A DNA stretch of 64,000 bases from Clostridiales bacterium (GTDB lineage Bacteria; Bacillota; DSM-16504; Desulfitibacterales; JAICDB01): contig JAICDB010000009.1 of assembly GCA_020063565.1 (NCBI GenBank), positions 65,393 through 129,392 on the forward strand, read 5' to 3'. The translations under genes and the position numbers were made by a program. Every line of letters starts with the position of its first letter. Within the stretch, counting starts at the first letter, position 1. This document shows positions 6,346 to 54,137 of the stretch, piece after piece. A model generated the notes under the pieces. It was given only the letters and a program-made list of their open reading frames with translations. It was not told the DNA's origin and ran no database searches.

Positions 6346-7027
6346 TGGTGCACGAGTGCTTGTGATTGATGATGAAAGTCAGATCCGAAAGATGCTTAAA
6401 GTAGCCTTGAAAGCTCATGGTTACGAAATTGAAGAGGCATCTTTGGGCCAGGAAGGTTTGGAGAAGGCTGCCGTTTTTCATCCTGATTTGATAATACTTG
6501 ATTTAGGCTTACCCGACGTAGATGGTTTTCAAGTCATCAACCGGCTTAGAGAATGGTCTCAGGTACCCGTAATCATACTTTCTGTAAAGGAACAGGAAGA
6601 GGATAAAATAAAGGCTTTGGATGCAGGCGCTGACGATTATGTAACCAAGCCTTTCAGTATGGGTGAATTACTGGCCAGGGTAAGGGTGGCATTGCGCCAT
6701 GCGGCCAAAACTGAGGATGAACCGGTGCTCACAATAGGAGAACTTACTATTGATCTGGCACATCGCCTGGTAACAGTTGGAGGTCAACCAATAAAATTAA
6801 CACCTACAGAATATGACATTTTAAAAAATTTGGCTCTGCATGCGGGGCGAGTCCTAACTCACCAGCAACTGCTGCGTTCCATCTGGGGGAAGGAGTACCA
6901 GGAGGAAAATCACTATCTTCGAGTATATATTGGCCAGCTCCGCCGTAAAATTGAACCTGATCCTACTCAACCTACCTATATAATTACCGAGCCGGGGGTT
7001 GGCTACAGATTAATGGCAAAGGATTAA
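6335..7027 (+). CDS. kdpE: OmpR-family response regulator KdpE
   Basis: Receiver domain (VLVIDDE...DLGLPD) plus winged-helix domain (GVGYRL). ATG 6335 is preferred over GTG 6326 because of the GAAAGG RBS spacing. Overlaps the kdpD 3' end. Confidence 0.85.
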   Translation: MPTSGARVLVIDDESQIRKMLKVALKAHGYEIEEASLGQEGLEKAAVFHPDLIILDLGLPDVDGFQVINRLREWSQVPVIILSVKEQEEDKIKALDAGADDYVTKPFSMGELLARVRVALRHAAKTEDEPVLTIGELTIDLAHRLVTVGGQPIKLTPTEYDILKNLALHAGRVLTHQQLLRSIWGKEYQEENHYLRVYIGQLRRKIEPDPTQPTYIITEPGVGYRLMAKD

Positions 7028-8496: not shown

Positions 8497-9147
8497 ATGG
8501 GCAGCTATGCTGTTATAGGATTGGGGAGATTTGGTTCCAGTGTAGCCAGGACTCTTGTCAAACTTGGCCACGAAGTACTGGGAATAGATAAATCCGAGAA
8601 AAAAGTTCAGGAAATGTCAAATATCTTAACCCATGTTGTGGCGGCAGATTCAAAGAATGAAGAGGTTTTAAAAAGCCTCGGGATCAGAAATTTTGATGCC
8701 GTGGTTGTTGCCATAGGTGAGGATACGGAAGCAAATATCTTAACCACTGTACTGCTTACACAACTAGGGGTAAAAAATATAATTGCGAAAGCAAATACGG
8801 ACATTCACGGAGAAGTTCTGAAAAGGGTAGGTGCCACAAAAATAGTTCACCCTGAAAAGGATATGGGTGAAAAAGTTGCCAATAATATGGCCTCTGGAAC
8901 TATTCTTGATTATATAGAATTGTCCCCCAAGCATTCAATAGTGGAATTTGCAGCGCCAAAAAAATTTGTTGGCAAAACTCTGGGTAAACTAAATTTAAGA
9001 GCCAAGTATGGTATAAGTGTGCTGGCAATAAAAAAAGGGGAAAGAATAATAGTTGCCCCCGGAGCAGATGGCTTGATTGAGGATAAGGACCTCTTAGTTG
9101 TTGTGGGGGAAAATGACAAGGTGAAAAAATGTTCCAAATCTAATTAA
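8497..9147 (+). CDS. ktrA: K+ uptake peripheral subunit KtrA (RCK N and C domains)
   Basis: 216 aa. Rossmann motif IGLGRFG. Lies immediately after ktrB. Confidence 0.85.
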   Translation: MGSYAVIGLGRFGSSVARTLVKLGHEVLGIDKSEKKVQEMSNILTHVVAADSKNEEVLKSLGIRNFDAVVVAIGEDTEANILTTVLLTQLGVKNIIAKANTDIHGEVLKRVGATKIVHPEKDMGEKVANNMASGTILDYIELSPKHSIVEFAAPKKFVGKTLGKLNLRAKYGISVLAIKKGERIIVAPGADGLIEDKDLLVVVGENDKVKKCSKSN

Positions 9148-9206
9148 AAATCATTATTATTATCTTAAATAATAAATATCTTTTTAAAAGATATTTACCC
9201 GCATAA

Positions 9207-9250
9207 AATAACGCTTCTCGAGCCATATTGAGAAGTGTTATTTTTTTTTA
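9207..9250 (+). terminator. Rho-independent terminator of ktrBA
   Basis: 13-bp stem AATAACGCTTCTC/GAGAAGTGTTATT (one G.U pair), followed by T9. Confidence 0.8.
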
Positions 9251-9327
9251 ATCTCCAGCGAATTTGTAATAAATTCTTGAAACATTTTCAGTAATATTCC
9301 GTCTATTGTCATGGAGGGATAATCAAA

Positions 9328-9912
9328 ATGACACAACAATTACTGGATATTTTTTTAAGAATGGGAATGACGGGACTCTTTGTAACTATGGCCTTTGAAG
9401 GATTATCGATTCCGTTTCCGGGTATCTTTGTAGCATTAACCTATGGCTATTTATTCAAACCCGGTTTAACAAAATTACCGCTCATAGCTTTGGAAATGAG
9501 TCTTGTCTATACTATGGCCAGTTTTATACCATATTTAATTGGTTTAAAACTGGAACAGAAAATAAAAAAGAGATTTCAAAATAAAATCCAAAAAGCGCAA
9601 AACTGGTTTCGTATATATGGGGAATGCAGTATTGCATTAACGCGTCCCTTTGGAGTAGGAAATTACATTTCATATGTGGCCGGTATAAGCAAGATAAAGT
9701 GGTGGAAATATGGTCTGTTAACACTTGTTGGAATATACCCGTGGTCTTTTGCTACTTTATTCCTCGGTTTAATTTATAAAGGTGAGATTACACAGATTAC
9801 TGAACAGCTTCAAGCTCATCGTGAGGATATTTACTTAGGCCTCATAATCATTATAGTGGTTTATGCTTGCATAGTTTTCGTACTAAACCATAACCAGGAA
9901 ACAAAAGTTTAG
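9328..9912 (+). CDS. DedA/VTT-domain family membrane protein
   Basis: 194 aa, 4-5 TM. N-terminal FEGLSIPFPG motif resembles the DedA family. Confidence 0.55.
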   Translation: MTQQLLDIFLRMGMTGLFVTMAFEGLSIPFPGIFVALTYGYLFKPGLTKLPLIALEMSLVYTMASFIPYLIGLKLEQKIKKRFQNKIQKAQNWFRIYGECSIALTRPFGVGNYISYVAGISKIKWWKYGLLTLVGIYPWSFATLFLGLIYKGEITQITEQLQAHREDIYLGLIIIIVVYACIVFVLNHNQETKV

Positions 9913-13789: not shown

Positions 13790-13810
13790 TAATTCATGTA
13801 TAAATATTAC

Positions 13811-13886
13811 AGGTGATGGAGCTCACCTTTAACCGTCTGGCTATGACTGATGGCTCCTGCTGAGTTGTTCGGCAGGAGTCTTTTTT
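13811..13886 (+). promoter_or_regulatory. Fluoride riboswitch (crcB motif) with intrinsic terminator expression platform
   Basis: AGGUGAUGGAGCUCACC UUUAACCGUC ... CUGAUGGCUCCU matches the crcB-motif consensus. Overlapping terminator GGCTCCTGC..GCAGGAGTC plus T6. Lies directly upstream of crcB. Confidence 0.9.
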
Positions 13887-37364: not shown

Positions 37365-38093
37365 ATGGTTGTCAGAAAGATTATTCAAATTGATGAAGAT
37401 AAATGTAACGGCTGCGGACTATGCGTTCCCGCGTGCCATGAAGGTGCGCTTCAAATTGTAGATGGCAAAGCAAAACTTGTATCTGACAAATACTGTGATG
37501 GTCTAGGTGATTGTTTGGGAGAATGTCCTCAGGACGCTATTAAAATTGTTGAAAGAGAAGCAGATGAATATGATGATAAAGCAGTACAGGAAAGACTTGC
37601 AAAACTGAACAAGGAAAAAGAAGAGGGGGATTCCTGCCATACTGGAGGTTGTCCGGGAAGCAGGATGATGAGTTTTGTAGAAGAGCCAGAACAAGGCGAG
37701 GCTGCAAAAACAGATAATATCCGCTTAAAATCACAGCTCAGACAGTGGCCCGTACAGATTACGCTTGTACCGCCGGATGCTCCGTATTTTGAAGATGCCA
37801 GTCTTCTTGTCTGTGCAGATTGCGTACCATTTGCATACCCAAACCTGCATAACGATTTCATGAAAGACAGAGTAGTACTCGTAGGTTGTCCAAAACTGGA
37901 TAATGCTGAACATTATCTTGAGAAGTTTGCAGAAATTTTTAGATTAAATAATATCAAAGATATCACACTTACCAGAATGGAAGTTCCCTGCTGTGGTGGA
38001 ATGAGAATTATTTTAGAAAAAGCACTGCAAATAGCAGGCAAGGATATTCCAATAAATGATGTGGTAGTTGGGATTAAAGGAGATTTAAAATAA
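37365..38093 (+). CDS. 2x[4Fe-4S] ferredoxin-domain protein with conserved Cys-rich C-terminal domain
   Basis: CNGCGLCVPACHEGAL and CDGLGDCLGECPQDAI. C-terminal CADCVPF...GCPKLD...PCCGG. Confidence 0.6.
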   Translation: MVVRKIIQIDEDKCNGCGLCVPACHEGALQIVDGKAKLVSDKYCDGLGDCLGECPQDAIKIVEREADEYDDKAVQERLAKLNKEKEEGDSCHTGGCPGSRMMSFVEEPEQGEAAKTDNIRLKSQLRQWPVQITLVPPDAPYFEDASLLVCADCVPFAYPNLHNDFMKDRVVLVGCPKLDNAEHYLEKFAEIFRLNNIKDITLTRMEVPCCGGMRIILEKALQIAGKDIPINDVVVGIKGDLK

Positions 38094-38316: not shown

Positions 38317-39135
38317 TCATATTTTCGCTCGAGAGAGAATTTTTTTGAAGGCTGAGAAAATAAAATACGCGGATACTGATAAGATGATAATAGCTGCACC
38401 TGAAGGTATATTAAGCTTATAAGAAAAAAGTAATCCCAGCAGGCAAAAAAGAATTCCCAGTAAGATTGATAATGCCATGAGGTGTTTAAGATTATAGGTA
38501 AATTGTTTTGCTATTGATGTAGGGGCAGTTAATAGGGCAATAATCAAAATGATGCCTACGACTCTAATTAAAATAACAACTGTCAGAGCAATCAGTATGA
38601 AAAGTATATAATCAAGTAGTGTGGTTGGAATGCCGAGAACAGCAGTAAATTCTTCATCAAATAAAAATGCCTTAAACAGGTTGAAGAAAGATAGTATTAC
38701 AGAGATTATTATCACATCAAGAACTACAATAATATATAAATCAATTTTTGAAACAGTCAGGATATCTCCAAATAGATAAGAAGTCATATCAGGTGGATAG
38801 CCCGGTGTAAATGCGACAAAAAGAATTCCTACAGCCATTCCAAAGGACCAAAACAAGCCTATTAAAATATCAGAATTTGTAGTAGTTTTTCTTTGAATGG
38901 TCGGAATGCCTAATGCAGCAAGTACAGAAAAAATTAAGCCACCAATGATAGGCTCTATGTTAAAATAGTACCCCATTCCTATTCCGCCAAATGCCGTATG
39001 TGCTATCCCGCCGCTTATCATTACCATTTTCTTTTCCATGATAATTGTCCCAATAATTCCACATGCAATGCTTGCCAGAATCGCGCTGAATACGGCGTTT
39101 TGTAAAAAGTTATACTTGAAAATAGCCTCAAGCAT
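38317..39135 (-). CDS. znuB: Zn/Mn-type metal ABC transporter permease
   Basis: Polytopic. ATG 39135 has a GAGGAGGG RBS and an ATGCTTGA overlap with the znuC stop. Confidence 0.85.
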   Translation of the reverse strand: MLEAIFKYNFLQNAVFSAILASIACGIIGTIIMEKKMVMISGGIAHTAFGGIGMGYYFNIEPIIGGLIFSVLAALGIPTIQRKTTTNSDILIGLFWSFGMAVGILFVAFTPGYPPDMTSYLFGDILTVSKIDLYIIVVLDVIIISVILSFFNLFKAFLFDEEFTAVLGIPTTLLDYILFILIALTVVILIRVVGIILIIALLTAPTSIAKQFTYNLKHLMALSILLGILFCLLGLLFSYKLNIPSGAAIIILSVSAYFIFSAFKKILSRAKI

Positions 39136-39898
39136 AATTTCCCTCCTCATGCTCTTGCAAAACCCTGTGCGGGACACCATGAGCAATTAAGTCCACGGGG
39201 CAACCATAGATTTTTGAAACAAGAGTACTGTTTAACTCCGGTTCTCCGTGGTAATATAATTTAGTATTTAAGCAAGCAATGCTTTTAACATATGAAGATA
39301 CTGCTCCCATGTCGTGGGTTACCAGAATAATTGTCATATATTTATTTAACTCGCTTAAAATGGAATAAATTTGTGTCCTGGATTTGGAGTCAAGGCTTGC
39401 AGTTGGTTCATCCAGCAAAATTATTTTAGGTTCCAGGGCTAAGGCCCTTGCAATCAAAACCCTTTGTAATTGGCCTGCAGACAGCCGGCCTATCTGCCTG
39501 TCTCTTAAATCATAAATATTTAACCGGTTGAGTAACTCTCTAACAGCCTCTTTGTCTTGCAGGGTATAGCGGCGAAAGAGGCAGTTTTTTTTGCGCAACC
39601 TTCCCGTTAAGACAACATCCCATACGTTAATGGGAAAACTTTTAGCAAACTTGGAAGCCTGAGGAACGTAGCCAATGAGCCCGCCTACTTTATGGGGTGG
39701 GCTGCCAAAAACGCGGATACTGCCGGTTGCGGGCTTTAGGAGCCCTAAAATAGTCTTCAATAAGGTACTCTTTCCGCCGCCGTTTGGCCCTAAAATACCA
39801 AGAAAATCTTTGTCTTTAATTGTTAAATTAATATCAGACAGCGCTATAACATGGTCGTAATATACACTTACATTTTCAATTTCCACTACATTTTCCAT
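39128..39898 (-). CDS. znuC: Metal ABC transporter ATPase
   Basis: Walker A GPNGGGKST. Signature LSAGQLQR. Walker B ILLDEP. Confidence 0.85.
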   Translation of the reverse strand: MENVVEIENVSVYYDHVIALSDINLTIKDKDFLGILGPNGGGKSTLLKTILGLLKPATGSIRVFGSPPHKVGGLIGYVPQASKFAKSFPINVWDVVLTGRLRKKNCLFRRYTLQDKEAVRELLNRLNIYDLRDRQIGRLSAGQLQRVLIARALALEPKIILLDEPTASLDSKSRTQIYSILSELNKYMTIILVTHDMGAVSSYVKSIACLNTKLYYHGEPELNSTLVSKIYGCPVDLIAHGVPHRVLQEHEEGNYA

Positions 39899-39907
39899 CT
39901 AACCACC

Positions 39908-40882
39908 TCAGTTTAAAACATTAGAAAAGAGTTCTGCTATCTTTTCCAGATTGTCTATATAATTTGGTGCAAGGGGCGCAACCTGCAGAGTTTTACCTCC
40001 TATTTCTTCAGCTATGGTCTGTGCTTGTTTGCTGTCAATTTCCGCCTGGTAAAAGATTACTTTAATATTTTTTTGCTTTGCCAGATCTATGACTTCTTGC
40101 ATATGTTCTATGGTAGCTTCTTTGCCGTGCTTTTCTATAGCTACCATTTTTAGTCCGTAATCGTCAGCAAAGTATCCAAAGACGGGATGGTAAACTAAGA
40201 AAGTTTTATTGGTTACCCCCGATAAAACTGTTTTTATTTTCCGGTCTACTTGAGAGAGCAGTTCCTGATAGCTTTGGGCATTTTTTTGATATGTATCTTT
40301 ATTGCCGGGATCTATTTCAGAAAGCCTATCGGCAATTACCTGAACCATTACCTGTACTCTCTTGGGAGAAAGCCAGATATGAGGGTCTCTACCGCTATGA
40401 TGATGGTCCTCTACCTGTTCCCTGTGGTGATCATCAGCAGGTTCATCTTGCTCTTCAGCGGAGTCGAAGTACCTTTCAGGATATACCTCAGCTACATGCC
40501 GTGCTAAATCTACGACCTTTAAGTTTTTATTAAAATCCGCAAGCTTTGGCAAAATATTTGCCTTCTCTGTTGGAACCCCTATGGAGAAATATAAGGAGGC
40601 TTCACTGAGCTGTGTCAGTTCCCGGGGAGAAGGGGCATAATTAGTAGGGCTGTTTCCCGGTGGAATCATAGTTACCACATCAACTAAGTCACCGGCTACA
40701 GCCTTTACAAAGGTAGCCTGGGGAACAATTGAAACGGCAACTGCCGGTTTTTTATCATTTGCTTCAGTGGTTGCAGGCCTGGATTTGTCAGCAGCAGTAC
40801 TTCCGGTAGAGCAACCGCTAAAAAGTATGGTTAGGACACAAATTAAAAATATAATGTGGATTTTATTTAATAAATTTTTCAT
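39908..40882 (-). CDS. znuA: Metal (zinc) ABC substrate-binding lipoprotein with His-rich loop
   Basis: Lipobox LFSGC. His/Asp/Glu loop DDHHREQVEDHHHSGRDPH, typical of ZnuA/AdcA. ATG 40882 chosen from GGAGG spacing. Confidence 0.85.
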   Translation of the reverse strand: MKNLLNKIHIIFLICVLTILFSGCSTGSTAADKSRPATTEANDKKPAVAVSIVPQATFVKAVAGDLVDVVTMIPPGNSPTNYAPSPRELTQLSEASLYFSIGVPTEKANILPKLADFNKNLKVVDLARHVAEVYPERYFDSAEEQDEPADDHHREQVEDHHHSGRDPHIWLSPKRVQVMVQVIADRLSEIDPGNKDTYQKNAQSYQELLSQVDRKIKTVLSGVTNKTFLVYHPVFGYFADDYGLKMVAIEKHGKEATIEHMQEVIDLAKQKNIKVIFYQAEIDSKQAQTIAEEIGGKTLQVAPLAPNYIDNLEKIAELFSNVLN

Positions 40883-40934
40883 AACCATACCTCCAGTTTT
40901 TGTTCCAGTAACTAGTGACGCAAGACTTTTTTCA

Positions 40935-41345
40935 CTAACGACAACGAGAACAGTATCCATATATTTTAAAACTATGGGTTGCAATTTCAAAATTGTGTTC
41001 ATTAACTGCTTCCTCTACTTTATGTTGTAAAGGGCACATTTCTAGTTCTATTGCTTTGCCGCACCCCAAACAAACTAAATGGTGATGATGTTTTCCGGCT
41101 AACTCATAACGATTGCAACCGTCTTTAAAATCCAGTTCCCTTACCAGACCCAAATCATTTAAAATATTGAGGTTTCTGTAAACTGTTCCAAAGGAGACAT
41201 TAGGCTGTTTCTTTTTTACTTCATTAAAAATTTCGTCGGCGCTTTTGTGGCTGCCATTCTCTAAAATTTCTATTATCAGCCTTCTCTGAGGAGTAATCTT
41301 ACACCCCTTATCCTTCATGATTTCCAGTAGATGTTTTGCCACCAT
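40935..41345 (-). CDS. zur: Fur-family metalloregulator, Zur by context
   Basis: 136 aa. HHHHLVCLGCG and C-terminal CSRC zinc sites. First gene of the znu cluster. Confidence 0.8.
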   Translation of the reverse strand: MVAKHLLEIMKDKGCKITPQRRLIIEILENGSHKSADEIFNEVKKKQPNVSFGTVYRNLNILNDLGLVRELDFKDGCNRYELAGKHHHHLVCLGCGKAIELEMCPLQHKVEEAVNEHNFEIATHSFKIYGYCSRCR

Positions 41346-41451: not shown

Positions 41452-41794
41452 CTACTTTGTGATAAAGTAAGTTCCAATCAGTAACAAAACAACTCCTGAT
41501 AATTTATACAAAAGTAATTCTTTTTGCTTTGAAATAAATAAGTCAATTACTAAGCCGCTTATGATTTACTCCTCCAATAAGCCATTGGGGGCTGACATAA
41601 ATAATCTTAGTATATTGATTGAGACTTCCTCTTACCAGGTTTGCGGTCAAAATAACAATAACCCCGGTAATCAAACTATGGAGAGTTGCAATTTTCGGGG
41701 TTACGATACTTCCTAATTTAGCATTAACAGTAGCCTCTAATGTTGTAAAAATTCCAGCCAGAATGGCAAATAAAAATGGCGTTAATTCTTTCAT
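41452..41794 (-). pseudogene. Disrupted DMT-superfamily YdcZ/DUF606-like membrane protein gene
   Basis: The N-terminal 83-aa ORF (41543..41794) ends prematurely. A C-terminal-like segment IDLFISKQKELLLYKLSGVVLLLIGTYFITK* is readable in another frame down to 41452. Confidence 0.5.
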
Positions 41795-42019
41795 GTAACT
41801 ACTCCTCCCCTACTTTTCTCCCTCTAAACGTATATATTCTAAATGCTTTTGGCATATTCCCTTCACTATGCGGAGGTTCTGGCAATAAAGTCATGACATT
41901 CTGGTCTGAACAGGCCAAGATATGCATGGCTTTATAATTTGTGAAAAAAATTATAAAGTAACGATCAATTAAGGAGGAACTTTGAAAGATATGTAGAATT
42001 ATAAAATTAAAAGAAAACA

Positions 42020-42134
42020 ACATGTCACGAAGGCATGTGCCATTTTAACTTTTCCTAAAAATAATATATCTGCGCAGTAAGGCCATGAAGGTCTGGCTCA
42101 TTAAGGGCCATACTTTTCATGGCCTATTTTATTT
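42020..42134 (+). promoter_or_regulatory. Two-hairpin leader A (ACGAA-pentaloop hairpin plus terminator-like hairpin) upstream of the ABC importer
   Basis: ACATGTC-ACGAA-GGCATGT (42020..42038). GGCCATGAA...TTCATGGCC (42081..42124), followed by TATTTTATTT. Paralogous to 53374..53493. Confidence 0.55.
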
Positions 42135-42151
42135 CATGGAGGTATGTGCAA

Positions 42152-43732
42152 ATGTTTCAAGGAAAAAAAGTAATTTATCTTTTGCTTTTCGGTCTATTAA
42201 TGGTTTTTATACTTGCTGGCTGTGGTGCAAAAACAGAAAATGAGAAAGATATGAACAGCGCTGCAGTCACCTATACAATTGCTGATGCAACAGGGGACTG
42301 GGGATTTCCCGCTCCCTATACCCACTATTTAAGGGGACCGGGCTATGTCAGAATGAGTTTTATTTTTGATACCCTGGTCTGGAAGGATCAAGAAGGATTC
42401 ACGGAGGCACTGGCTGACAAGTGGGAGTACCTGGAAGAAGAAAATGCCTTTTTATTTAACCTCAGGAAGGATGTGACCTGGCATGACGGGGAAAAATTTA
42501 CTGCCGATGATGTAGTGTTTACTTTCCAGTATACAAGGGAAAACCCGTATCCGTGGAGTGATACGACAATTGTCAAAAATGTAGAAGCACTTGATGAGTA
42601 TACGGTCAAAGTCTACCTGGAAAAACCATATGCCCCGTTTTTAGCAAATGTTGCCGGGACACTTCCCATTATCCCGCGCCATATCTATGAAAACATTGAA
42701 AACCCCAGGGATTGTAAAGATATGAAGGCAGCTACGGGGACAGGCCCATTTAAGCTGGTTGACTATAACAAGGAGCACGGAACATATCTTTATGAGGCAA
42801 ATCCGGATTATTATCTTGGCAAACCTCAGGTAGATAAAATCCGCTTTATAAAAGTGGGAAAACAGATGATACCTTCAGCTTTGCTGGAAGGCACTGTAAA
42901 TGCCGGCGATATTCCCGCTGAAATGATTGCTAAATTTACAGGTAAAGAATTTATTGTCTTAACTTCCGATCATAGCTGGAATGCAAAACTGATGTTTAAC
43001 CACCAGGAAGAACCTTTTTCAGACAAGAAATTCAGGCAGGCTATAGCATATGCCATTAACAGGGGAAAGCTTGTGGAAATAGCCCAGAGGGGCCATGCCC
43101 TGCAGGGAAGTCCGGGGATCTTTGCACCTGACAATCCCTGGTATTCACCGGAGATAAATAACTATTCATTTAGTCCGGAAAAGGGCAGAAAGCTCCTTGA
43201 GGAACTGGGTTATGAGTGGAAAGATGGAGTTCTTTATAAAGATGGCAGGGCGCTTCAAATTGAACTATTGATTAAGTCCAGATTTGCAAGGGATGCGGAG
43301 CTTATTAAGGCAGATCTCGAGGATATAGGGATAAAGGTTGAACTTCGCAGCCTTGAGGATAAAACTGTTGATTCAAAAATAGAGGATTGGGATTTCCAGA
43401 TGGCAATCAGCGGTCACGGAGGCCTGGGAGGAGACCCCCAGAATCTTAATAAGTTTATTCTGGGTAAAGGCTTCAACAGTGCCAGGTATTTTGAAAATGA
43501 AGAACTTACCGGACTCTTAAAGAAACAGCTGTCTGTAATGGACAGTGCTGAACGCAAAAAAATTGTAGCCCGTATTCAGAAAATGTACTCTGAAGAGCTC
43601 CCTACCCTTACCCTTTATTACCCTGACTGGCAGTGGGCGCATGACGGGAAAGTGGATTTATATTATACGCCCGGTGGAATGGCATTGGGGATTCCGATAC
43701 CGTTAAATAAGCTGTCTTTTGTCAAACCTTAA
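42152..43732 (+). CDS. ABC substrate-binding lipoprotein, family 5 (NikA/OppA/DppA type)
   Basis: Lipobox LAGCG after ATG 42152 (GGAGG RBS). About 526 aa, the usual family-5 SBP length. Confidence 0.8.
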   Translation: MFQGKKVIYLLLFGLLMVFILAGCGAKTENEKDMNSAAVTYTIADATGDWGFPAPYTHYLRGPGYVRMSFIFDTLVWKDQEGFTEALADKWEYLEEENAFLFNLRKDVTWHDGEKFTADDVVFTFQYTRENPYPWSDTTIVKNVEALDEYTVKVYLEKPYAPFLANVAGTLPIIPRHIYENIENPRDCKDMKAATGTGPFKLVDYNKEHGTYLYEANPDYYLGKPQVDKIRFIKVGKQMIPSALLEGTVNAGDIPAEMIAKFTGKEFIVLTSDHSWNAKLMFNHQEEPFSDKKFRQAIAYAINRGKLVEIAQRGHALQGSPGIFAPDNPWYSPEINNYSFSPEKGRKLLEELGYEWKDGVLYKDGRALQIELLIKSRFARDAELIKADLEDIGIKVELRSLEDKTVDSKIEDWDFQMAISGHGGLGGDPQNLNKFILGKGFNSARYFENEELTGLLKKQLSVMDSAERKKIVARIQKMYSEELPTLTLYYPDWQWAHDGKVDLYYTPGGMALGIPIPLNKLSFVKP

Positions 43733-43773
43733 GCAATTAGAGCATATGGTAATACTTTTGGGTAATAGTTAGG

Positions 43774-44739
43774 GTGAGGAACGTGAAAAAGAAAGCGCTT
43801 GATTACCTGCTAGCATTTATAATTATTATCAGCTTGAATTTTCTCCTTCCCCGTTTGCTGCCGGGGGACCCTCTGGCAGCCATCTACGGGGAGGAGGCTC
43901 TCATTGCCATGACTTCCGAACTGGAGGCAGAGTTAATCGAACGCTTTGGCCTGGATAAATCTCTGCCCGAGCAGTTTATTATATATTTATCTTCACTTCT
44001 TAAAGCCGATCTCGGGTATTCATATTATTATGAAACATCTGTTACGAAACTTATCCTGGGAGCCCTGCCCTGGACCCTGCTGCTTGTAGGTTTGGGACTT
44101 GTCCTGTCAACTCTTTTGGGATTTATTTTGGGCCTGGAATCGGGTTGGAACCGTGGTAGATGGCAGGATAAGGGGATACTAACAGGTCTAATGCTTCTTA
44201 ACGGATTTCCGGATTTTTTCATAGGGATACTTCTTCTTTTGGTATTTGCAGTATCTTTGGGTATTTTCCCTTTATCGGGGGCACTTACTCCTTATACAGG
44301 GCTATCGGGGTTTGCCCTTGTGAGGGACATCTTATGGCACCTGTCACTTCCTTTAGCTGCCGTAGTGCTCTCGGAAATAACAGCCTCTTACCTCCTTACA
44401 AGGACGACAGTAATAACAATTTTAGGTGAGCCATTCATACTCACTGCCAGGGCAAAGGGACTCAAAGACACTGCCATCAGGTACAGGCATGTGGGCAAAA
44501 ATTCCCTTTTACCCATACTCACAAGGACCGGAATCAGGGTAGGCAGGATCTTTGCAGGAGCAATATTTATTGAAATTGTTTTTGCTTATCCGGGACTGGG
44601 TGTGCTTATTTTTAACTCTCTAATGGCCAGAGATTACCCTGTCCTGCAGGGAATCTTTTTACTGGTTGCGATAGGGGTCCTGGCAACCAATTTTATTGTG
44701 GACCTCTTGTACAAAAAAATTGATCCCAGGGTGGTATAA
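43774..44739 (+). CDS. ABC permease (NikB/DppB type)
   Basis: 6 TM. EAA-like loop region (ARAKGL). Operon position. Confidence 0.8.
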   Translation: MRNVKKKALDYLLAFIIIISLNFLLPRLLPGDPLAAIYGEEALIAMTSELEAELIERFGLDKSLPEQFIIYLSSLLKADLGYSYYYETSVTKLILGALPWTLLLVGLGLVLSTLLGFILGLESGWNRGRWQDKGILTGLMLLNGFPDFFIGILLLLVFAVSLGIFPLSGALTPYTGLSGFALVRDILWHLSLPLAAVVLSEITASYLLTRTTVITILGEPFILTARAKGLKDTAIRYRHVGKNSLLPILTRTGIRVGRIFAGAIFIEIVFAYPGLGVLIFNSLMARDYPVLQGIFLLVAIGVLATNFIVDLLYKKIDPRVV

Positions 44740-45582
44740 ATGCATGTAGACTATTTTAATTGTGTGAAAAAGAATAATATGGGTAGAATGGGCTTGATAT
44801 TACTCGTTATAATATCTACCATTGCCATATTTGCGCCGCTTTTAACCTTTTACCACCCTGCAGAGACCTCGCCCAACACATTACAGTTCCCTTCAGCAAA
44901 GCACCCGCTGGGTACCAATGATATCGGCCAGGATATCTTAAGCAGGGTGCTATATGGTGCGAGAACCACCCTTGTAGTTGCCTTCCTGGTGGGGATAACT
45001 TCAACGCTACTCAGCGCCTTTCTGGGAGGGACCGCAGCGCTTTTTGGCGGTCTCTATGAAAGAATTGTCATGAGGATTGCAGATGTTTTTTTAACACTGC
45101 CCAGTATCTTGGTAATTATTTTAATAACTTCCTATGTCAGGCCGGGTTTGTTAATGCTTGTAATAGTTATTTCTGCCTTCAGCTGGCAGGGAGGCGCTCG
45201 GGTTATCAGGGCCCAAACCCTTTCTCTTAAAAATAAAGCGCATATTGCGGCGGCTAGAACCTTTGGTGCAGGTAACCTCTATATTTTAAGAAAACATATA
45301 CTTCCCGATTTAGGCCCCCTTATGGTAGCAGGTTTTGTACAGCATGCCCGCAGGGCGGTTTTTATGGAAGCAGGTCTGGCCTTTTTGGGAATTTGTGATC
45401 CAACTACAGTCAGCTGGGGAATTATGCTTAACAGGGCTCTGGAATTTGCATATTTAAATGTCTGGTACTGGTTACTACCTCCCGGGTTAGCACTTTCCCT
45501 TACGGTCTTATCTTTCACGTTTTTAGGTTATGCGCTGGAGGAAACAGTGAATCCAAGATTGAGGGTGAAGGAAAATGCTTAA
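44740..45582 (+). CDS. ABC permease (NikC/DppC type)
   Basis: Polytopic. Conserved AARTFGAG loop. The start abuts the previous stop. Confidence 0.8.
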   Translation: MHVDYFNCVKKNNMGRMGLILLVIISTIAIFAPLLTFYHPAETSPNTLQFPSAKHPLGTNDIGQDILSRVLYGARTTLVVAFLVGITSTLLSAFLGGTAALFGGLYERIVMRIADVFLTLPSILVIILITSYVRPGLLMLVIVISAFSWQGGARVIRAQTLSLKNKAHIAAARTFGAGNLYILRKHILPDLGPLMVAGFVQHARRAVFMEAGLAFLGICDPTTVSWGIMLNRALEFAYLNVWYWLLPPGLALSLTVLSFTFLGYALEETVNPRLRVKENA

Positions 45583-47299
45583 GATAAATGATTTAAAAGT
45601 CTGCTATGGTAACTACCGGATATTAAAGGGTATAGATTTAGAAATACGGCAAGGTGAGGTACTGTCCATAGTTGGTGAGTCGGGAACCGGAAAGACTACA
45701 CTTGCCCTTACCCTCCTGGGATTATGCCAGGGCAAGGTTGAGGGAAAAGTTACCTTGGAAGATGAAAATATCCTTACACTTTCGGAAGATGAAAAAAGAA
45801 CGCTGCGCTGGAATAAGATAAGTATTGTTTTTCAGGACGTGGCAAGGGCCCTCAACCCGCTCATGACAGCCGGTGAGCAAATTATGGAGCCAATGCTTGA
45901 GAATAAGCTGTACAGCCTTGAAAAAGCAAAAGCCCGTGTCTTAACTCTCTTAAAGGAAGTGGGGTTATCTCAAGGTTGTGCTGACCTTTACCCTCACCAG
46001 CTGAGCGGAGGGGAAAAACAGCGGGTCTTAATTGCAATGGCTCTGGCAAATAACCCGGAGGTTATAATACTTGATGAACCTACTTCCGCACTGGATGCAA
46101 TTACCAGGGTGGAAATACTCAAATTGCTTAAAAAGATAGCTGCCGGGCGGACTGTGATTGTAGTTACCCATGACCTTTCAGTTGCGGCAAAACTGTCCCA
46201 AAAAATGGCCGTCCTGTATTCCGGTAGGATTGTAGAACTCGGGGAGACAAAAAAATTGCTTCAGAATCCGAAACATCCTTATACCAGAGGGTTACTCCGT
46301 TCTTTTCCCAACATGACTACAACCAAGGATTTGCAGGGTATCCCCGGCAGGCAGGAAAATGTTTTGGAGGGTTGTACCTTTCACCCCAGGTGTACCCAGA
46401 AAATATCCCGTTGTGAACAGGAAGTGCCGGAATTGGAACAACAAGCTGATAGAAAAATTGCCTGTCACAGGGGCGGCATAGTTACACTTTTGGAAACAAG
46501 GGATTTGGTGAAAAAGTATAACCGGGTTAAAGCGCTGGATAAGGTAAGTATAGAGCTGGTTGAAGGTGAAACTCTGGCAGTGGTGGGGCAAAGCGGCTCC
46601 GGAAAGACAACACTTGCCAAATGTTTAATGGGTCTGGAAGATTCGGAGTCAGGTGAAATTTTTTTTAATGGAAGTAAGCTGGTGAATAGAAAGAAGGAAT
46701 TCTACAAACAGGTGCAAATGATCTTTCAAACCCCCCAGGAGTGCATAAGCCACCGCTTGAATGTGCTGGATGCGGTAATTGAACCTTTAAATATTCAGGG
46801 AATTGGTTCCCGGGAAGAAAGAAAAGAGATGGCGAAAAAAGCGCTGCAGGAAGTACAGTTGGCTGTTGACGATAGCTTTTTAAAAAGATATGCACACTAC
46901 TTGAGCGGTGGTGAAATTCAAAGGGTGGCAATAGCCAGGGCTCTGGTAATTAACCCTAAATTGATTATTGCTGATGAGCCCACATCTGCCCTGGATGCCA
47001 GCGTCCAGGCAAAAATAATCAGGCTACTTTTAGACATCCAGGAAAAAAGAGGCTTAACAATGTTGTTTATAACTCATGATATTGCACTGGCCAGAAAAAT
47101 AAGCGACAGGGTGGCGGTAATGCTCTCCGGCCGGATAGTAGAAGAGGGACCCACGTGTGAAGTCTTTTCATCGCCACAGCATCCTTATACCAGAGATTTA
47201 TTAAGGGCGGCACCTGAGTTGTCATCTCATTACTCACAGGAAACAAAAACCCTGCAATACTGCCAGGTGCTAAAATTACAGGAAAGGAGCGGTTACTAG
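45575..47299 (+). CDS. Fused double ATPase (NikD-NikE/DppD-DppF type)
   Basis: Two Walker A motifs (GESGTGKTT, GQSGSGKTT). Two signatures (LSGGEKQR, LSGGEIQR). Confidence 0.85.
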   Translation: MLKINDLKVCYGNYRILKGIDLEIRQGEVLSIVGESGTGKTTLALTLLGLCQGKVEGKVTLEDENILTLSEDEKRTLRWNKISIVFQDVARALNPLMTAGEQIMEPMLENKLYSLEKAKARVLTLLKEVGLSQGCADLYPHQLSGGEKQRVLIAMALANNPEVIILDEPTSALDAITRVEILKLLKKIAAGRTVIVVTHDLSVAAKLSQKMAVLYSGRIVELGETKKLLQNPKHPYTRGLLRSFPNMTTTKDLQGIPGRQENVLEGCTFHPRCTQKISRCEQEVPELEQQADRKIACHRGGIVTLLETRDLVKKYNRVKALDKVSIELVEGETLAVVGQSGSGKTTLAKCLMGLEDSESGEIFFNGSKLVNRKKEFYKQVQMIFQTPQECISHRLNVLDAVIEPLNIQGIGSREERKEMAKKALQEVQLAVDDSFLKRYAHYLSGGEIQRVAIARALVINPKLIIADEPTSALDASVQAKIIRLLLDIQEKRGLTMLFITHDIALARKISDRVAVMLSGRIVEEGPTCEVFSSPQHPYTRDLLRAAPELSSHYSQETKTLQYCQVLKLQERSGY

Positions 47300-47301
47300 A
47301 A

Positions 47302-47748
47302 ATGAAACTCAAACAAATAGGCATCATCCATTCACCATATAAAGAAAAATCAGCTGCACCTCCGCAAGGGCGTATGAAGGAAGATACATTTGAAATTGAA
47401 ATACTTTCTCAATTTGCAGATGGTTTAAAGGATATAGAGACTGCTACGCATTTGATAATACTTTACTGGCTGGACAGGGCGGAGAGAGATAAGCTAATTG
47501 CCAACACGCCATGGGATGACGAACCCCACGGGGTCTTTGCAACACGTTCCCCCGCACGCCCCAACCCCATCGCATTTGATATAGTTGATTTAGTGAAGAG
47601 AGAAGGAAATAAATTATACGTAAAGGGTATGGATGCTTTGGATCAGAGCCCGCTTCTTGATATTAAGCCGTATAATTCCCGAACCGATGCAATACCGGAT
47701 GCCAAACTCGGGTGGTTTGAGAAGGCAGTAACAGAAAGAAATAAATAG
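47302..47748 (+). CDS. TsaA/TrmO-like (UPF0066) SAM-binding beta-barrel protein
   Basis: GVFATRSPARPNPI and LLDIKPY motifs. 2 nt after the ATPase stop, so it is the last gene of the transporter operon. Confidence 0.7.
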   Translation: MKLKQIGIIHSPYKEKSAAPPQGRMKEDTFEIEILSQFADGLKDIETATHLIILYWLDRAERDKLIANTPWDDEPHGVFATRSPARPNPIAFDIVDLVKREGNKLYVKGMDALDQSPLLDIKPYNSRTDAIPDAKLGWFEKAVTERNK

Positions 47749-52809: not shown

Positions 52810-53004
52810 CTTGGAGAATTGGTAATATTATGAAACGAGATGCTACTACTCAAATAAAAGTTAAAAAAATAAGTTCTTCTTGCTTGCTCTTGCAAAAAAA
52901 TAATTGTATCGAAAAAGGAGTTAGTCTCCTTTGCACTAAAAATTATTGATATGGTAATTTTATAATAGTAAAATAATAATAGTAGTTAAAAGGTGGTGTA
53001 AGGA

Positions 53005-53205
53005 ATGGATAGGGAAACAAAAGAGATGTTTGAGGTTATTTTAAGTAAGCTTAATAGAGTGGAAAGTAGGCAAGATGAAATTTATGAAATAGTGAAGGCT
53101 ATACAACATAGTAATGAGGTACATAAAGCAGAATTGGATCACCTCAAAATAAGGGTATCCCAAGGTGAAGGCAATTTTTCACGAATTAAGGCAGCAATAA
53201 AATAA
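53005..53205 (+). CDS. Hypothetical 66-aa coiled-coil protein
   Basis: AAGGTGG RBS 7-8 nt upstream. Heptad-like, charged sequence. No family recognised. Confidence 0.45.
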   Translation: MDRETKEMFEVILSKLNRVESRQDEIYEIVKAIQHSNEVHKAELDHLKIRVSQGEGNFSRIKAAIK

Positions 53206-53373: not shown

Positions 53374-53493
53374 GCATACTACGAAAGTATGCAGCTATTT
53401 ATTTGAATGGATGGACATTAAATCTTAATATCGCTAATAATAAAGCCATGAAGGTTGTGAACTATCGTTAGGCTCTACCATCATGGTTTTTTT
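53374..53493 (+). promoter_or_regulatory. Two-hairpin leader B, paralogous to leader A, upstream of the FmdE-like gene
   Basis: GCATACT-ACGAA-AGTATGC (53374..53392). CCATGA(A)GGT...ACC(A)TCATGG (53446..53486), followed by T7. Confidence 0.55.
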
Positions 53494-53534
53494 ATTACCA
53501 CCTGGCTAAGAAAAAATTAAAGGAGCGTGATATC

Positions 53535-54137
53535 ATGTGCAGACAATTAACCCCCTGGGAAGAGGCTGTACAATTTCACGGGCATGCCTGTCCCGGGCTG
53601 GCAATGGGCGTCAGGGCCAGTCAAATCGCTTTGGAAAAACTGGGTGTAGAGAGGGCTGAAGATGAAGAACTGATAGCAATTGCTGAAACTGACGGCTGCG
53701 GTGTAGACGGTGTACAGGTCATAACTGCCTGTACACTGGGTAAAGGAAACCTCTTTTTAAAGGATTACGGAAAGCAGGTCTATACAATTGCCAGCAGGAA
53801 AACAGGTCAAGGCGTAAGGGTGTATTTTAAGCCGTTTGATTTCTCCGCTGCAGAGAAGGATTTGCGCAAAAAGGTTTTTGCAGGAGAAGCCACTCCCGAA
53901 GAACAGAAGGAATTTAAGAAGATGCAGGAAAAATTGATAGATCATATTCTCAATTCCACCGCTGAAGAGATTTGTGATGTGCAGGTGAAAAAAGTGGAAC
54001 TCCCCGGGAAGGCACGCATTTTCCAGTCGGTACGCTGTGAAAAATGCGGTGAATACTTTATGGAACCAAGGGCCAGGTTCCAGGACGGTAAAATTGTCTG
54101 CCTGGAATGCTTTGAGGACTATAACAGGCAAATTTAG
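53535..54137 (+). CDS. FmdE-domain protein with C-terminal zinc ribbon
   Basis: FHGHACPGLAMG and ETDGCGVDG motifs of the FmdE family. C-terminal CEKCGE...CLEC. Confidence 0.75.
   Translation: MCRQLTPWEEAVQFHGHACPGLAMGVRASQIALEKLGVERAEDEELIAIAETDGCGVDGVQVITACTLGKGNLFLKDYGKQVYTIASRKTGQGVRVYFKPFDFSAAEKDLRKKVFAGEATPEEQKEFKKMQEKLIDHILNSTAEEICDVQVKKVELPGKARIFQSVRCEKCGEYFMEPRARFQDGKIVCLECFEDYNRQI

What the first reader, a model, noticed from the sequence alone, without database searches (positions are those of the whole stretch)
42020..42134. Paralogous two-hairpin leaders upstream of a Nik/Opp-type importer and an FmdE-like gene: candidate new cis-regulatory RNA
Both 5' regions share the same architecture. 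Hairpin 1 is a 7-bp stem with an identical ACGAA pentaloop but different stem sequences: ACATGTC-ACGAA-GGCATGT at 42020..42038 and GCATACT-ACGAA-AGTATGC at 53374..53392. This is covariation at every stem position. An AT-rich linker of about 40-50 nt follows, sharing ATATC.GC..A.TAA. Hairpin 2 begins with the identical 11-mer GCCATGAAGGT. It folds as a 6-9 bp outer stem, one unpaired nucleotide (a bulge in A, a 1x1 mismatch in B), then a GGT/ACY inner stem, and is followed by a U-run (42081..42134 and 53446..53493). No plus-strand gene lies upstream of leader A, so its terminator-like hairpin is best explained as an attenuator. I could not match either leader to riboswitch classes I know (B12, NiCo, Moco, T-box, PyrR). 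Both downstream genes are plausibly linked to metals or cofactors.
Basis: seen in the sequence. Interest (0 to 1): 0.72.

Follow-up and report, generated by a model that had tools for sequence, protein, structure and literature searches.

The report
New two-hairpin transcription attenuator for nickel genes
Both leaders are copies of a widespread, undescribed RNA switch: small hairpins with an A-N-G-A-A loop compete with a transcription terminator in front of nickel-associated transport and chaperone genes, probably under control of an unidentified RNA-binding factor.

Summary
The interpretation, a new cis-regulatory RNA acting as an attenuator, holds up and can be sharpened.

The shared 11-mer GCCATGAAGGT is more than the 5' strand of the terminator. 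It can fold on its own into a small hairpin, (R)CC-AUGAA-GG(Y), with the same kind of pentaloop (A-N-G-A-A) as hairpin 1. This small hairpin and the terminator exclude each other, so it is an antiterminator.

I found about 78 such attenuators in Clostridia, Negativicutes, Syntrophomonas, Anaerolineales and delta-proteobacterial genomes and metagenomes. They always lie upstream of one gene set: an Opp/Nik-type ABC importer with TrmO_N and FmdE, DUF3842 with CooT, and CbiMNQO.

The evidence:
- The small hairpin shows covariation.
- An upstream ANGAA hairpin is enriched (P about 1e-16).
- Rfam 15 has no match, and no paper describing the motif was found.

The architecture copies ANTAR targets, but the loops and linker differ.

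Best mechanism: termination by default, with a trans-acting factor that clamps the ANGAA loops to allow read-through. That factor is probably a nickel-responsive protein. The CooT family is the leading candidate, but this is unproven. A direct riboswitch remains a serious rival.

The parts
41994..41999 (+). Possible -10 box (TAGAAT) of the leader A promoter, placing the transcript start about 13 nt before hairpin 1. Inferred only.
   Evidence: Read from the sequence. The consensus scan did not list it. It lists instead a 9/12 site at 42037-42065 between the two hairpins. In other loci clear TTGACA-17-TATAAT promoters lie upstream of hairpin 1.
42020..42038 (+). Leader A hairpin 1 (h1): 7-bp stem with ACGAA pentaloop.
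   Evidence: -7.9 kcal/mol. Same unit found upstream of 12 of 24 homologous attenuators as a perfect hairpin.
42039..42079 (+). Leader A linker, not conserved in sequence or length across homologues (about 20-66 nt).
42080..42094 (+). Leader A hairpin 2 (h2), the proposed antiterminator: AGGCC-AUGAA-GGUCU, 5 bp plus AUGAA pentaloop. It is entirely contained in the 5' strand of the terminator.
   Evidence: -5.8 kcal/mol on its own
42080..42134 (+). Leader A intrinsic terminator: stem-loop 42080-42125 followed by U run 42127-42134.
   Evidence: -28.6 kcal/mol; R1 hit 42075-42136, E 4e-10
42152..47748 (+). Regulated operon A: SBP_bac_5 (42152-43732), two permeases (43774-44739, 44740-45582), fused double ATPase (45575-47299), stand-alone TrmO_N protein (47302-47748).
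53374..53392 (+). Leader B hairpin 1 (h1): 7-bp stem with ACGAA pentaloop.
   Evidence: -8.5 kcal/mol
53444..53456 (+). Leader B hairpin 2 (h2), the proposed antiterminator: AGCC-AUGAA-GGUU.
   Evidence: -2.8 kcal/mol on its own
53442..53493 (+). Leader B intrinsic terminator: stem-loop 53442-53490 with U run 53487-53493.
   Evidence: -17.0 kcal/mol; R1 hit 53438-53500, E 1e-8
53535..54137 (+). Regulated gene B: FmdE domain plus C-terminal DksA/TraR-type zinc ribbon. In relatives this is the last gene of operon A.

Best explanation
Each leader is a transcription attenuator of a previously undescribed family.

The nascent RNA carries hairpin 1 (stem plus A-N-G-A-A pentaloop) and, 40-50 nt later, the sequence RCC-ANGAA-GGY. 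That sequence has two mutually exclusive fates:
- It can pair with a downstream complement to form a strong intrinsic terminator followed by a U run. This is the thermodynamic default and switches the genes off.
- It can fold back on itself into a weak 4-5 bp hairpin that displays a second ANGAA loop. This is the antiterminator and switches the genes on.

The small hairpin is about 15-23 kcal/mol weaker than the terminator, so it can only win if something holds it. I propose that a trans-acting factor recognises the ANGAA loops of hairpins 1 and 2. In other subclasses it would recognise hairpin 2 plus an (A)GAA-type loop at the terminator apex. Binding while the RNA is being made would prevent terminator formation.

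The factor is most likely a dimeric or multimeric RNA-binding protein that is active when nickel is scarce. The genes switched on are an Opp/Nik-type importer with TrmO_N, FmdE and, in other genomes, DUF3842-CooT and CbiMNQO.

The leading candidate for the factor is the CooT family. It is a small dimeric nickel-binding protein whose gene is typically flanked by two of these attenuators.

What is shown:
- the structures
- their mutual exclusivity
- conservation and covariation
- the gene association.

What is inferred:
- the direction of regulation
- nickel as the signal
- a protein as the partner
- CooT as that protein.
For: 1. Alternative folds and energies in the window: h2 alone -5.8 and -2.8 kcal/mol, against -28.6 and -17.0 for the terminators.
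2. Recurrence: 24 curated attenuators in FmdE or SBP loci, 51 further distinct ones in CooT loci, and 3 in Calderihabitans. All are on the sense strand upstream of the gene set.
3. The 5' strand is conserved in sequence, while the 3' strand is only complementary and often uses G-U. This argues for RNA rather than a DNA palindrome, and for sequence-specific recognition of the non-terminator fold.
4. Covariation in the small hairpin: pair 6-18 is AU 11, GC 8, UG 1, unpaired 4. Pair 8-16 is CG 22, GC 2. The covariation score is 0.355 against 0.21 in shuffles (0 of 500 reach it) and at most 0.14 when the partners are slid.
5. An upstream perfect ANGAA hairpin is present in 12 of 24 leaders, against a background of 1.4e-4 per nt (binomial P 2e-16). 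Of 34 pentaloop hairpins upstream, 13 are ANGAA. Hairpin 1 stems vary freely while the loop stays constant.
6. Loop position 2 takes all four bases with no correlation between h1 and h2. It behaves like a flipped-out base rather than a loop-loop pairing position.
7. Loop position 4 varies in concert within a genome. All four Calderihabitans loops are AUGGA and both L094 loops are ACGGA (permutation P 7e-4). This is what a co-evolving protein partner would produce.
8. The layout [attenuator]-DUF3842-(FmdE)-CooT-[attenuator]-CbiM recurs in many metagenome contigs. It resembles hutP, glcT and pyrR, where the regulator gene sits just upstream of the terminator it controls (established knowledge).
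9. CooT is a dimer that binds one Ni per dimer with Kd 9 nM through Cys2 (PMC6006190). Cys2 is invariant here. Several sources label the family 'predicted RNA-binding protein'.
10. The architecture equals that of ANTAR targets: two small hairpins with conserved loops, the second at the 5' base of a terminator (PMC3369931).
Against: - No experiment exists. The direction of control and the signal are inferred from gene content alone.
- The 64-kb window has no CooT or DUF3842 gene, and neither do several other class I loci within about 8 kb. The relative Calderihabitans has the pair on another contig.
- CooT and DUF3842 may be regulated cargo rather than the regulator.
- Foldseek with a confident CooT model finds only CooT structures. 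It finds no Sm/Hfq or other RNA-binding fold at significance: the next hit is a RimM-like protein at E 0.03.
- From memory, the authors of the first CooT structure looked for RNA binding and found none, though not with this RNA.
- About a quarter of attenuators lack a recognisable hairpin 1.
- The linker length is very variable (about 20-66 nt), unlike ANTAR targets.
- In both window leaders the promoter scan places its best sites between hairpin 1 and hairpin 2. If those are the real promoters, hairpin 1 is not transcribed here.
- The hairpin 1 alignment used for pair counts was selected for pairing, so only the enrichment test is unbiased.
Confidence: 0.6

Rival explanations
1. A true riboswitch. 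The two (or three) ANGAA loops together form the pocket for a small ligand or metal ion, as the two ACGR loops do in guanidine-II. Binding stabilises hairpin 2 and so prevents termination, with no protein involved.
For: - Only loops and closing pairs are conserved, the linker is free, and the hairpins are tandem, exactly as in mini-ykkC.
- Many loci with the element have no candidate regulator gene nearby.
- Wide phylogenetic spread with nearly invariant A1, G3, A4, A5.
Against: - Binding to the conserved fold would switch importers on. That is the wrong sign if the ligand is the imported metal, so a deficiency signal or a substrate-type inducer would be needed.
- Loop position 2 is any base, so a guanidine-II-like C-G kissing pair is excluded.
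- The loops are not mutually complementary.
- Concerted loop changes within a genome (AUGGA or ACGGA at all sites) fit a co-evolving macromolecule better than a fixed small ligand.
- Two pentaloops carry very little information for a selective pocket.
Confidence: 0.25
2. DNA-level operators. The inverted repeats are binding sites for a metal-responsive transcription factor of the NikR, Zur or ArsR type, and the hairpins are incidental.
For: Both elements are palindromic and lie near promoter-like sites. A Fur-family gene, probably zur, sits next to leader A. Nickel importers are classically controlled by NikR (established knowledge).
Against: - Half-site sequences are not conserved between sites, while pairing is.
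- G-U pairs are frequent.
- The conserved loop is asymmetric and strand-specific.
- The element is always in sense orientation and followed by a U run.
- Spacing between the two units varies from about 20 to 80 nt without helical phasing.
- The 3' half of the long hairpin is much less conserved than the 5' half.
Confidence: 0.03
3. Independent small RNA genes. Promoter, hairpin 1, linker and terminator make a roughly 115-nt sRNA that acts in trans, and its position before the genes is secondary.
For: The default fold ends in a strong terminator, so short transcripts should accumulate. Terminated riboswitch leaders can act in trans in other bacteria (established knowledge).
Against: The element is always immediately upstream of, and co-oriented with, the same gene families. 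It also occurs inside operons between CooT and CbiM. No conserved single-stranded seed exists in the linker.
Confidence: 0.05
4. The similarity between A and B is only recent paralogy or chance, and the hairpins have no function beyond an ordinary terminator.
For: Within the window there are just two copies. They share an ACGAA loop, an 11-mer and similar spacing, as expected after a duplication.
Against: About 78 further instances occur in several phyla with different stems, the same loops and the same downstream genes. The enrichment statistics agree. There is no upstream plus-strand gene for the terminator of leader A to serve.
Confidence: 0.02

Closest known systems
ANTAR-protein target RNAs (EutV, NasR, AmiR antiterminators)
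   Same: Two small tandem hairpins whose terminal loops carry the conserved nucleotides. The second hairpin is built from the 5' base of an intrinsic terminator, so binding of a dimeric protein to both loops prevents termination. Several copies occur within one regulon or operon (PMC3369931).
   Different: - Loops here are pentaloops with A at position 1 and G at position 3 (A-N-G-A-A). ANTAR targets have hexaloops with A1 and G4.
- The linker is about 20-66 nt rather than 5-12 nt.
- Hairpin 1 is optional, and a third (A)GAA-type loop at the terminator apex can take its place.
- No ANTAR gene was seen in the neighbourhoods examined.
- The gene content is nickel and transport, not ethanolamine, nitrate or amidase.
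Guanidine-II riboswitch (mini-ykkC, RF01068)
   Same: Two tandem hairpins in which essentially only the loop (ACGR) and the closing pairs are conserved, joined by a variable linker. Hairpin 1 of both window leaders even reads ACGA-A.
   Different: - mini-ykkC loops are tetraloops whose C and G pair between the two hairpins. Here position 2 is any base and the loops cannot pair.
- There is no Rfam hit even at E up to 10.
- mini-ykkC usually controls translation of guanidine exporters or carboxylases. This element controls termination before metal-related importers.
NiCo (czcD) riboswitch and NikR repressor, the known nickel sensors
   Same: They control genes of nickel and cobalt homeostasis. 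In these genomes the element occupies the regulatory position that NikR operators hold before nik and cbiMNQO genes.
   Different: - NiCo is a four-way-junction aptamer that turns on efflux genes.
- NikR is a DNA-binding protein.
- Neither resembles this RNA in sequence or structure. Rfam scans found no NiCo match at these leaders or elsewhere in the loci scanned.
Regulator-before-terminator operons (hutP-hut, glcT-ptsG, pyrR-pyr)
   Same: The gene order [attenuator]-small protein gene(s)-[attenuator]-structural genes seen for DUF3842-CooT-CbiMNQO matches operons where the RNA-binding regulator is encoded just upstream of the terminator it controls.
   Different: The RNA motifs are unrelated (UAG repeats, RAT, PyrR binding loop). 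The regulator role of CooT or DUF3842 is conjecture.

Membership tests
ANTAR target RNA | Two tandem small hairpins, the second overlapping the 5' strand of an intrinsic terminator | tested here: met
   h1 42020-42038 and h2 42080-42094 lie within terminator 42080-42125. The same holds in leader B and in homologues.
ANTAR target RNA | Hexanucleotide loops with A at position 1 and G at position 4 | tested here: not met
   Loops are 5 nt, A-N-G-A-A, with G at position 3, in 24 + 51 instances. The definition comes from PMC3369931.
ANTAR target RNA | Short linker, 5-12 nt in the eut examples, whose length matters | tested here: not met
   Linkers are 41 and 51 nt in the window and about 20-66 nt elsewhere.
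ANTAR target RNA | ANTAR-domain (PF03861) protein in the genome or neighbourhood | tested here: inconclusive
   No ANTAR domain was found among the roughly 60 neighbouring proteins scanned or listed. Whole genomes could not be searched.
Guanidine-II riboswitch (mini-ykkC) | ACGR tetraloops whose C and G form inter-loop pairs | tested here: not met
   Pentaloops. Position 2 is A, C, G or U with no correlation between the two hairpins.
Guanidine-II riboswitch (mini-ykkC) | Match to the Rfam model RF01068 | tested here: not met
   No hit with E up to 10 in either leader.
Any Rfam 15 family | Score at or above the gathering threshold | tested here: not met
   In the window only the fluoride riboswitch at 13803-13866 passes. 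In the 12 motif-bearing loci scanned, none of the hits (group II intron, cobalamin riboswitches, c-di-GMP-I, SSU rRNA) falls at an attenuator position.
Intrinsic (Rho-independent) terminator | G+C-containing stem-loop directly followed by a U run | tested here: met
   All 17 instances used for the model, and the later ones, have it.
NiCo (czcD) riboswitch | Four-way junction aptamer upstream of metal efflux genes; Rfam match | tested here: not met
   No Rfam hit. The downstream genes are importers.
Lambda/P22 boxB-type pentaloop hairpin (N-protein antitermination) | GNRA-like pentaloop starting with G (GAAAA, GAAGA, GACAA) within a nut site | tested here: not met
   The loop starts with A in nearly all cases. 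There is no phage context. The boxB consensus is from established knowledge.

The most novel reading that the evidence does not exclude
CooT-family proteins, whose role has been unclear since they were described as CODH 'accessory' nickel binders, would be nickel-sensing RNA-binding antiterminators. The apo dimer would clamp two ANGAA-loop hairpins on the nascent leader and allow read-through into nickel importers and chaperones. Ni(II) bridging the two Cys2 residues would release the RNA. This would be the first metal-responsive transcription attenuation protein, and a third way besides NikR and the NiCo riboswitch in which bacteria sense nickel.
Probability: 0.25. Interest if true: 0.9.

Novelty: new variant of a known kind. 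Interest (0 to 1): 0.78.

Why it matters
- **Unexplained regulation.** Nickel uptake in many anaerobes (acetogens, syntrophs, sulfate reducers, Chloroflexi) has no recognised regulator.
- **A defined regulon.** This element gives those organisms a conserved, easily recognisable control element. It ties together Opp/Nik-type importers, CbiMNQO, CooT, FmdE-like proteins, DUF3842 and stand-alone TrmO_N proteins, several of which have no known function.
- **A new recognition code.** It adds a second, independent example of the ANTAR-style 'two loops against a terminator' design, with a different code: an A-N-G-A-A pentaloop closed by C-G.
- **A testable hypothesis.** The partner should be either a nickel-binding protein or a ligand. 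Either outcome would be a new sensor class.
- **Better annotation.** A covariance model built from these sequences would annotate many leaders now left blank, in addition to the roughly 78 found here.

Tried and rejected
- **Rfam.** Gathering and E up to 10 scans of the window and leaders, and gathering scans of 21 related loci, gave nothing at the leaders.
- **Leader peptide.** I read 'CC AUG AAG GU' as a start codon. The ORFs differ in length and sequence and have no SD, so I rejected this.
- **Additional window copies.**
  - The third 11-mer at 37435 lies in a coding region.
  - The AGGAA hairpin at 6450 lies in a coding region.
  - R1 with filters off finds only the two leaders.
- **NikR or Zur operator.** Rejected on asymmetry, G-U pairs and variable half-sites.
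- **Loop-loop kissing as in guanidine-II.** Rejected because loop position 2 is unconstrained.
- **Pattern scans of the big collections for the motif.** Not run, because any pattern specific enough for the tool's 14-base rule was estimated to give from thousands to hundreds of thousands of chance hits. Protein-anchored retrieval was used instead.
- **DUF3842 structure.** The AF2 model is confident (pLDDT 91.7) and Rossmann-like. PDB matches are weak and generic and give no functional clue.
- **CooT structure.** The fold search did not recover Sm/Hfq-like RNA binders.
- **SBP against PDB.** It is roughly equidistant from HbpA, DppA, NikA and CntA, so the substrate cannot be read from sequence.
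- **Literature.** Nine searches (FmdE + riboswitch, DUF3842, pentaloop + antiterminator + nickel, nikA + riboswitch, CooT + RNA-binding, and others) found no description of this motif.
Full report
**1. What is in the window**

| Part | Leader A | Leader B |
|---|---|---|
| Hairpin 1 | ACATGTC-ACGAA-GGCATGT, 42020-42038 | GCATACT-ACGAA-AGTATGC, 53374-53392 |
| Linker | 41 nt | 51 nt |
| 11-mer GCCATGAAGGT | 42082-42092 | 53445-53455 |
| Long hairpin | 42080-42125, -28.6 kcal/mol | 53442-53490, -17.0 kcal/mol |
| U run | 42127-42134 | 53487-53493 |
| SD and start | GGAGG, ATG at 42152 | AAGGAG, ATG at 53535 |

The A and B stems of hairpin 1 differ at four of seven pairs, three by double compensatory change. 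The other three pairs are identical, so 'covariation at every position' is too strong.

Leader A precedes these genes:
- an SBP_bac_5 binding protein
- two permeases
- a fused double ATPase
- a stand-alone TrmO_N protein.

Leader B precedes an FmdE-domain protein with a DksA/TraR zinc ribbon.

The gene upstream of leader A is on the other strand. Beyond it lie a Fur-family gene (probably zur) and znuACB. The terminator-like hairpin of leader A therefore has no gene to terminate.

Rfam 15 has no match for either leader, even at E up to 10. The only family in the window is a fluoride riboswitch at 13803-13866.

**2. The element is conserved elsewhere**

The FmdE protein is 100% identical to one from a 'Clostridia bacterium' MAG. 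Its nearest relatives are about 65% identical: Calderihabitans and Peptococcaceae.

Contigs encoding these relatives showed the 10-mer CCATGAAGGT again. Each time it formed the 5' strand of a terminator just upstream of FmdE or of an operon containing it.

A scan of species-representative genomes with an FmdE alignment gave 80 loci. Relaxed pattern searches plus folding, and then a covariance model (R1), gave attenuators in the following groups:
- Peptococcaceae, other Bacillota, Syntrophomonas and Negativicutes
- Anaerolineales
- Syntrophobacteraceae and Desulfomonilaceae.

The archaeal FmdE loci have none.

In four close relatives the genes of 'operon A' and FmdE form a single operon: SBP-permease-permease-ATPase-TrmO_N-FmdE. 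In all four the element lies upstream of the SBP gene. A fifth relative, L086, has the same operon without TrmO_N. It carries an ANGAA hairpin 1 but an atypical terminator, and R1 gives no hit there.

Leader B in the window is thus a duplicate that accompanies a split-off FmdE. This explains the paralogous look of A and B. It also makes the compensatory changes in their hairpin 1 stems meaningful.

**3. The key structural point**

Across instances the 5' strand of the terminator is conserved in sequence: A-R-C-C-A-N-G-A-A-G-G-Y. The 3' strand is merely complementary, often through G-U pairs.

That asymmetry means the conserved bases matter in a fold other than the terminator. The conserved stretch can fold by itself as RCC-ANGAA-GGY. 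This is a 4-5 bp hairpin with the same A-N-G-A-A pentaloop and C-G closing pair as hairpin 1.

On 24 anchored sequences the small hairpin shows the following:

| Pair | Counts |
|---|---|
| Closing C-G | invariant |
| Second pair | CG 22, GC 2 |
| Third pair | GU 8, GC 7, AU 5 |
| Fourth pair | AU 11, GC 8, UG 1, unpaired 4 |

The covariation score is 0.355, against 0.21 ± 0.03 in shuffles (0 of 500 reach it) and at most 0.14 when the partners are slid.

The terminator does not require positions 6 and 18 to be complementary. This is therefore independent evidence that the small hairpin forms.

It is far weaker than the terminator: -5.8 and -2.8 kcal/mol against -28.6 and -17.0. Termination is the default, and the antiterminator needs help.

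**4. Hairpin 1 is part of the element**

A perfect ANGAA-loop hairpin of at least 4 bp lies 15-120 nt upstream of hairpin 2 in 12 of 24 leaders. The background rate is 1.4e-4 per nt over 2.2 Mb, giving binomial P 2e-16. Imperfect or variant versions occur in about six more.

I also listed all perfect hairpins upstream without regard to loop sequence. The four commonest pentaloops are AAGAA, AGGAA, AUGAA and ACGAA, and 13 of 34 pentaloops are ANGAA.

Stems vary freely (a selected set). Loop position 2 takes all four bases without correlation between the two hairpins.

Clear TTGACA-17-TATAAT promoters lie 10-20 nt upstream of hairpin 1 in several loci, so hairpin 1 is transcribed there.

In the window the promoter is less clear. 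The consensus scan puts its best sites between the two hairpins. I regard TAGAAT at 41994-41999 as a plausible -10 box for leader A. This remains a caveat.

**5. The regulon points to nickel**

Clustering the ORFs of motif-bearing loci gave these recurrent partners:
- FmdE
- the Opp/Nik-type ABC components
- TrmO_N
- DUF3842
- CooT, which matches the Carboxydothermus CooT structure 6FAN at E 3e-21.

A metagenome scan with a CooT alignment returned 80 loci. R1 hits 46 of them, nearly always on the CooT strand.

The recurrent map is [attenuator]-DUF3842-(FmdE)-CooT-[attenuator]-CbiM.... These loci add 51 distinct attenuators.

Three subclasses appear:

| Class | Position | Features |
|---|---|---|
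| I (window type) | upstream of SBP or FmdE | h1 plus h2 |
| II | CooT-CbiM intergenic | h2 is GGCC-ACGAA-GGYC; the terminator apex is often itself a C-AGAA-G hairpin (with UGAA and GGAA variants); usually no h1 |
| III | upstream of CooT without DUF3842 | h1 is uguagc-AAGAA-gcuaca about 25 nt before an AGCC-AGAAA/AGAAG-GGCU h2 |

The common rule is at least two hairpins with (A)NGAA-type loops, one of which is consumed by the terminator.

Arguments for nickel as the physiological theme:
- CooT binds one Ni(II) per dimer with nanomolar affinity through Cys2 (PMC6006190).
- Cys2 is invariant in these homologues.
- The CbiMNQO genes here lack a B12 riboswitch.
- In contrast, neighbouring cobalt or B12 genes (CbiK; CobN only by my reading of L172) have their own cobalamin riboswitches. 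The L172 one upstream of CobN was read by eye only.

The theme is an inference. The SBP itself is about equally distant from HbpA, DppA, NikA and CntA.

**6. Mechanism**

The structures and their mutual exclusivity are shown. The rest is inferred.

The conserved nucleotides are displayed only in the non-terminator fold, and that fold is weak. Recognition of the loops must therefore favour read-through.

For importer genes this implies a factor that binds when the metal is scarce. An apo-protein fits this. The imported metal as a direct ligand does not.

Three observations favour a protein:
- **Architecture.** The design matches ANTAR targets: two loops, with the second hairpin at the 5' base of the terminator, bound by a dimer (PMC3369931).
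- **Loop position 2.** It is unconstrained and looks like a flipped-out base.
- **Concerted loop variation within genomes.** All four loops in Calderihabitans are AUGGA: the SBP leader, h1 and h2 of the DUF3842 leader, and the CooT-distal attenuator. I predicted the SBP leader loop before retrieving it. Both loops in L094 are ACGGA. Most other genomes use A at position 4 throughout (permutation P 7e-4 on a small sample).

The candidate partner is CooT:
- It is dimeric and senses nickel.
- Its gene sits between two attenuators, like hutP, glcT or pyrR.
- Several sources still label the family 'predicted RNA-binding protein'.

Against CooT:
- The fold search finds only CooT structures and nothing RNA-binding at significance.
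- CooT is absent from the window.
- CooT could simply be cargo.

DUF3842 is Rossmann-like and uninformative. FmdE is the other ever-present gene, but it also occurs in archaea, which lack the motif.

**7. Comparison with known systems**

- **ANTAR targets.** It works like one but is not a member. It has pentaloops A1/G3 rather than hexaloops A1/G4, and long variable linkers rather than 5-12 nt.
- **Guanidine-II.** It resembles this riboswitch in having information only in the loops. It fails the defining ACGR tetraloop and kissing-pair features, and it fails the Rfam model.
- **NiCo and cobalamin riboswitches.** It is unrelated to the NiCo riboswitch and is not a cobalamin riboswitch.
- **Literature.** Nine searches found no description. 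The library lacks most subscription journals, so absence is not proof.

**8. Verdict**

| Claim | Confidence |
|---|---|
| Genuine, widespread, apparently unreported cis-regulatory RNA family acting by terminator/antiterminator competition | about 0.9 |
| The partner is a protein | about 0.55-0.6 |
| A direct riboswitch | about 0.25 |
| CooT specifically | about 0.25 |

The refinement is the recognition code and the regulon.

Noticed in passing
window 13803-13866 (+): Fluoride riboswitch (crcB motif), 52.7 bits, E 9e-12. It is the only Rfam family in the window at gathering threshold.
   Followed up: no
window 38317-41345 (-): A Fur-family regulator (probably zur, 40935-41345), znuA, znuC and znuB form a minus-strand cluster upstream of leader A, beyond a short DMT_YdcZ-like ORF (41543-41794). 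Zinc and the presumed nickel system are therefore neighbours.
   Followed up: partly
window 53005-53205 (+): A 66-aa ORF (MDRETKEMFEVILSKL...), preceded by a 10/12 promoter-like site at 52946-52974, lies just upstream of leader B. Its function is unknown and it was not searched.
   Followed up: no
window 41928-41958 (+): A 12-bp AT-rich perfect hairpin (gctttataattt-GTGAAAA-aaattataaagt) lies in the divergent intergenic region upstream of leader A. It is unexplained.
   Followed up: no
window 37435-37445 and 6440-6464 (+): A third exact copy of GCCATGAAGGT and a 10-bp AGGAA-loop hairpin both lie inside ORFs: a Cys-rich, ferredoxin-like ORF (my reading of its translation) and a response-regulator-like ORF (my reading). 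I judged them chance look-alikes.
   Followed up: yes
L052 1133-6322 and 9307-16577; L009 1940-4387: Next to motif-regulated genes lie cobalamin riboswitches (three in L052, one in L009). Nearby genes include CbiK chelatases, CobN/ChlI/ChlD and a fused NifH/NifD-like protein resembling tetrapyrrole reductive cyclases. A tetrapyrrole or cobalt neighbourhood accompanies the presumed nickel regulon.
   Followed up: partly
L172 about 9040-9330: In Calderihabitans the DUF2162-ExbB-DUF2149-CobN cluster downstream of FmdE is preceded by what reads like a cobalamin riboswitch (GCCACUG box). This was seen by eye only and not run through Rfam.
   Followed up: no
L086 2790-2840: In one relative the terminator before the SBP gene is a perfect 16-bp hairpin whose own apex is CCC-AAGAA-UGGG. 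No separate hairpin 2 is recognisable, so this is an atypical or degenerate version of the element.
   Followed up: no
L012 15173-15402 (-) and 3206-3292 (-): A group II intron domain and a c-di-GMP-I riboswitch lie in a related locus. They are unrelated to the finding.
   Followed up: no
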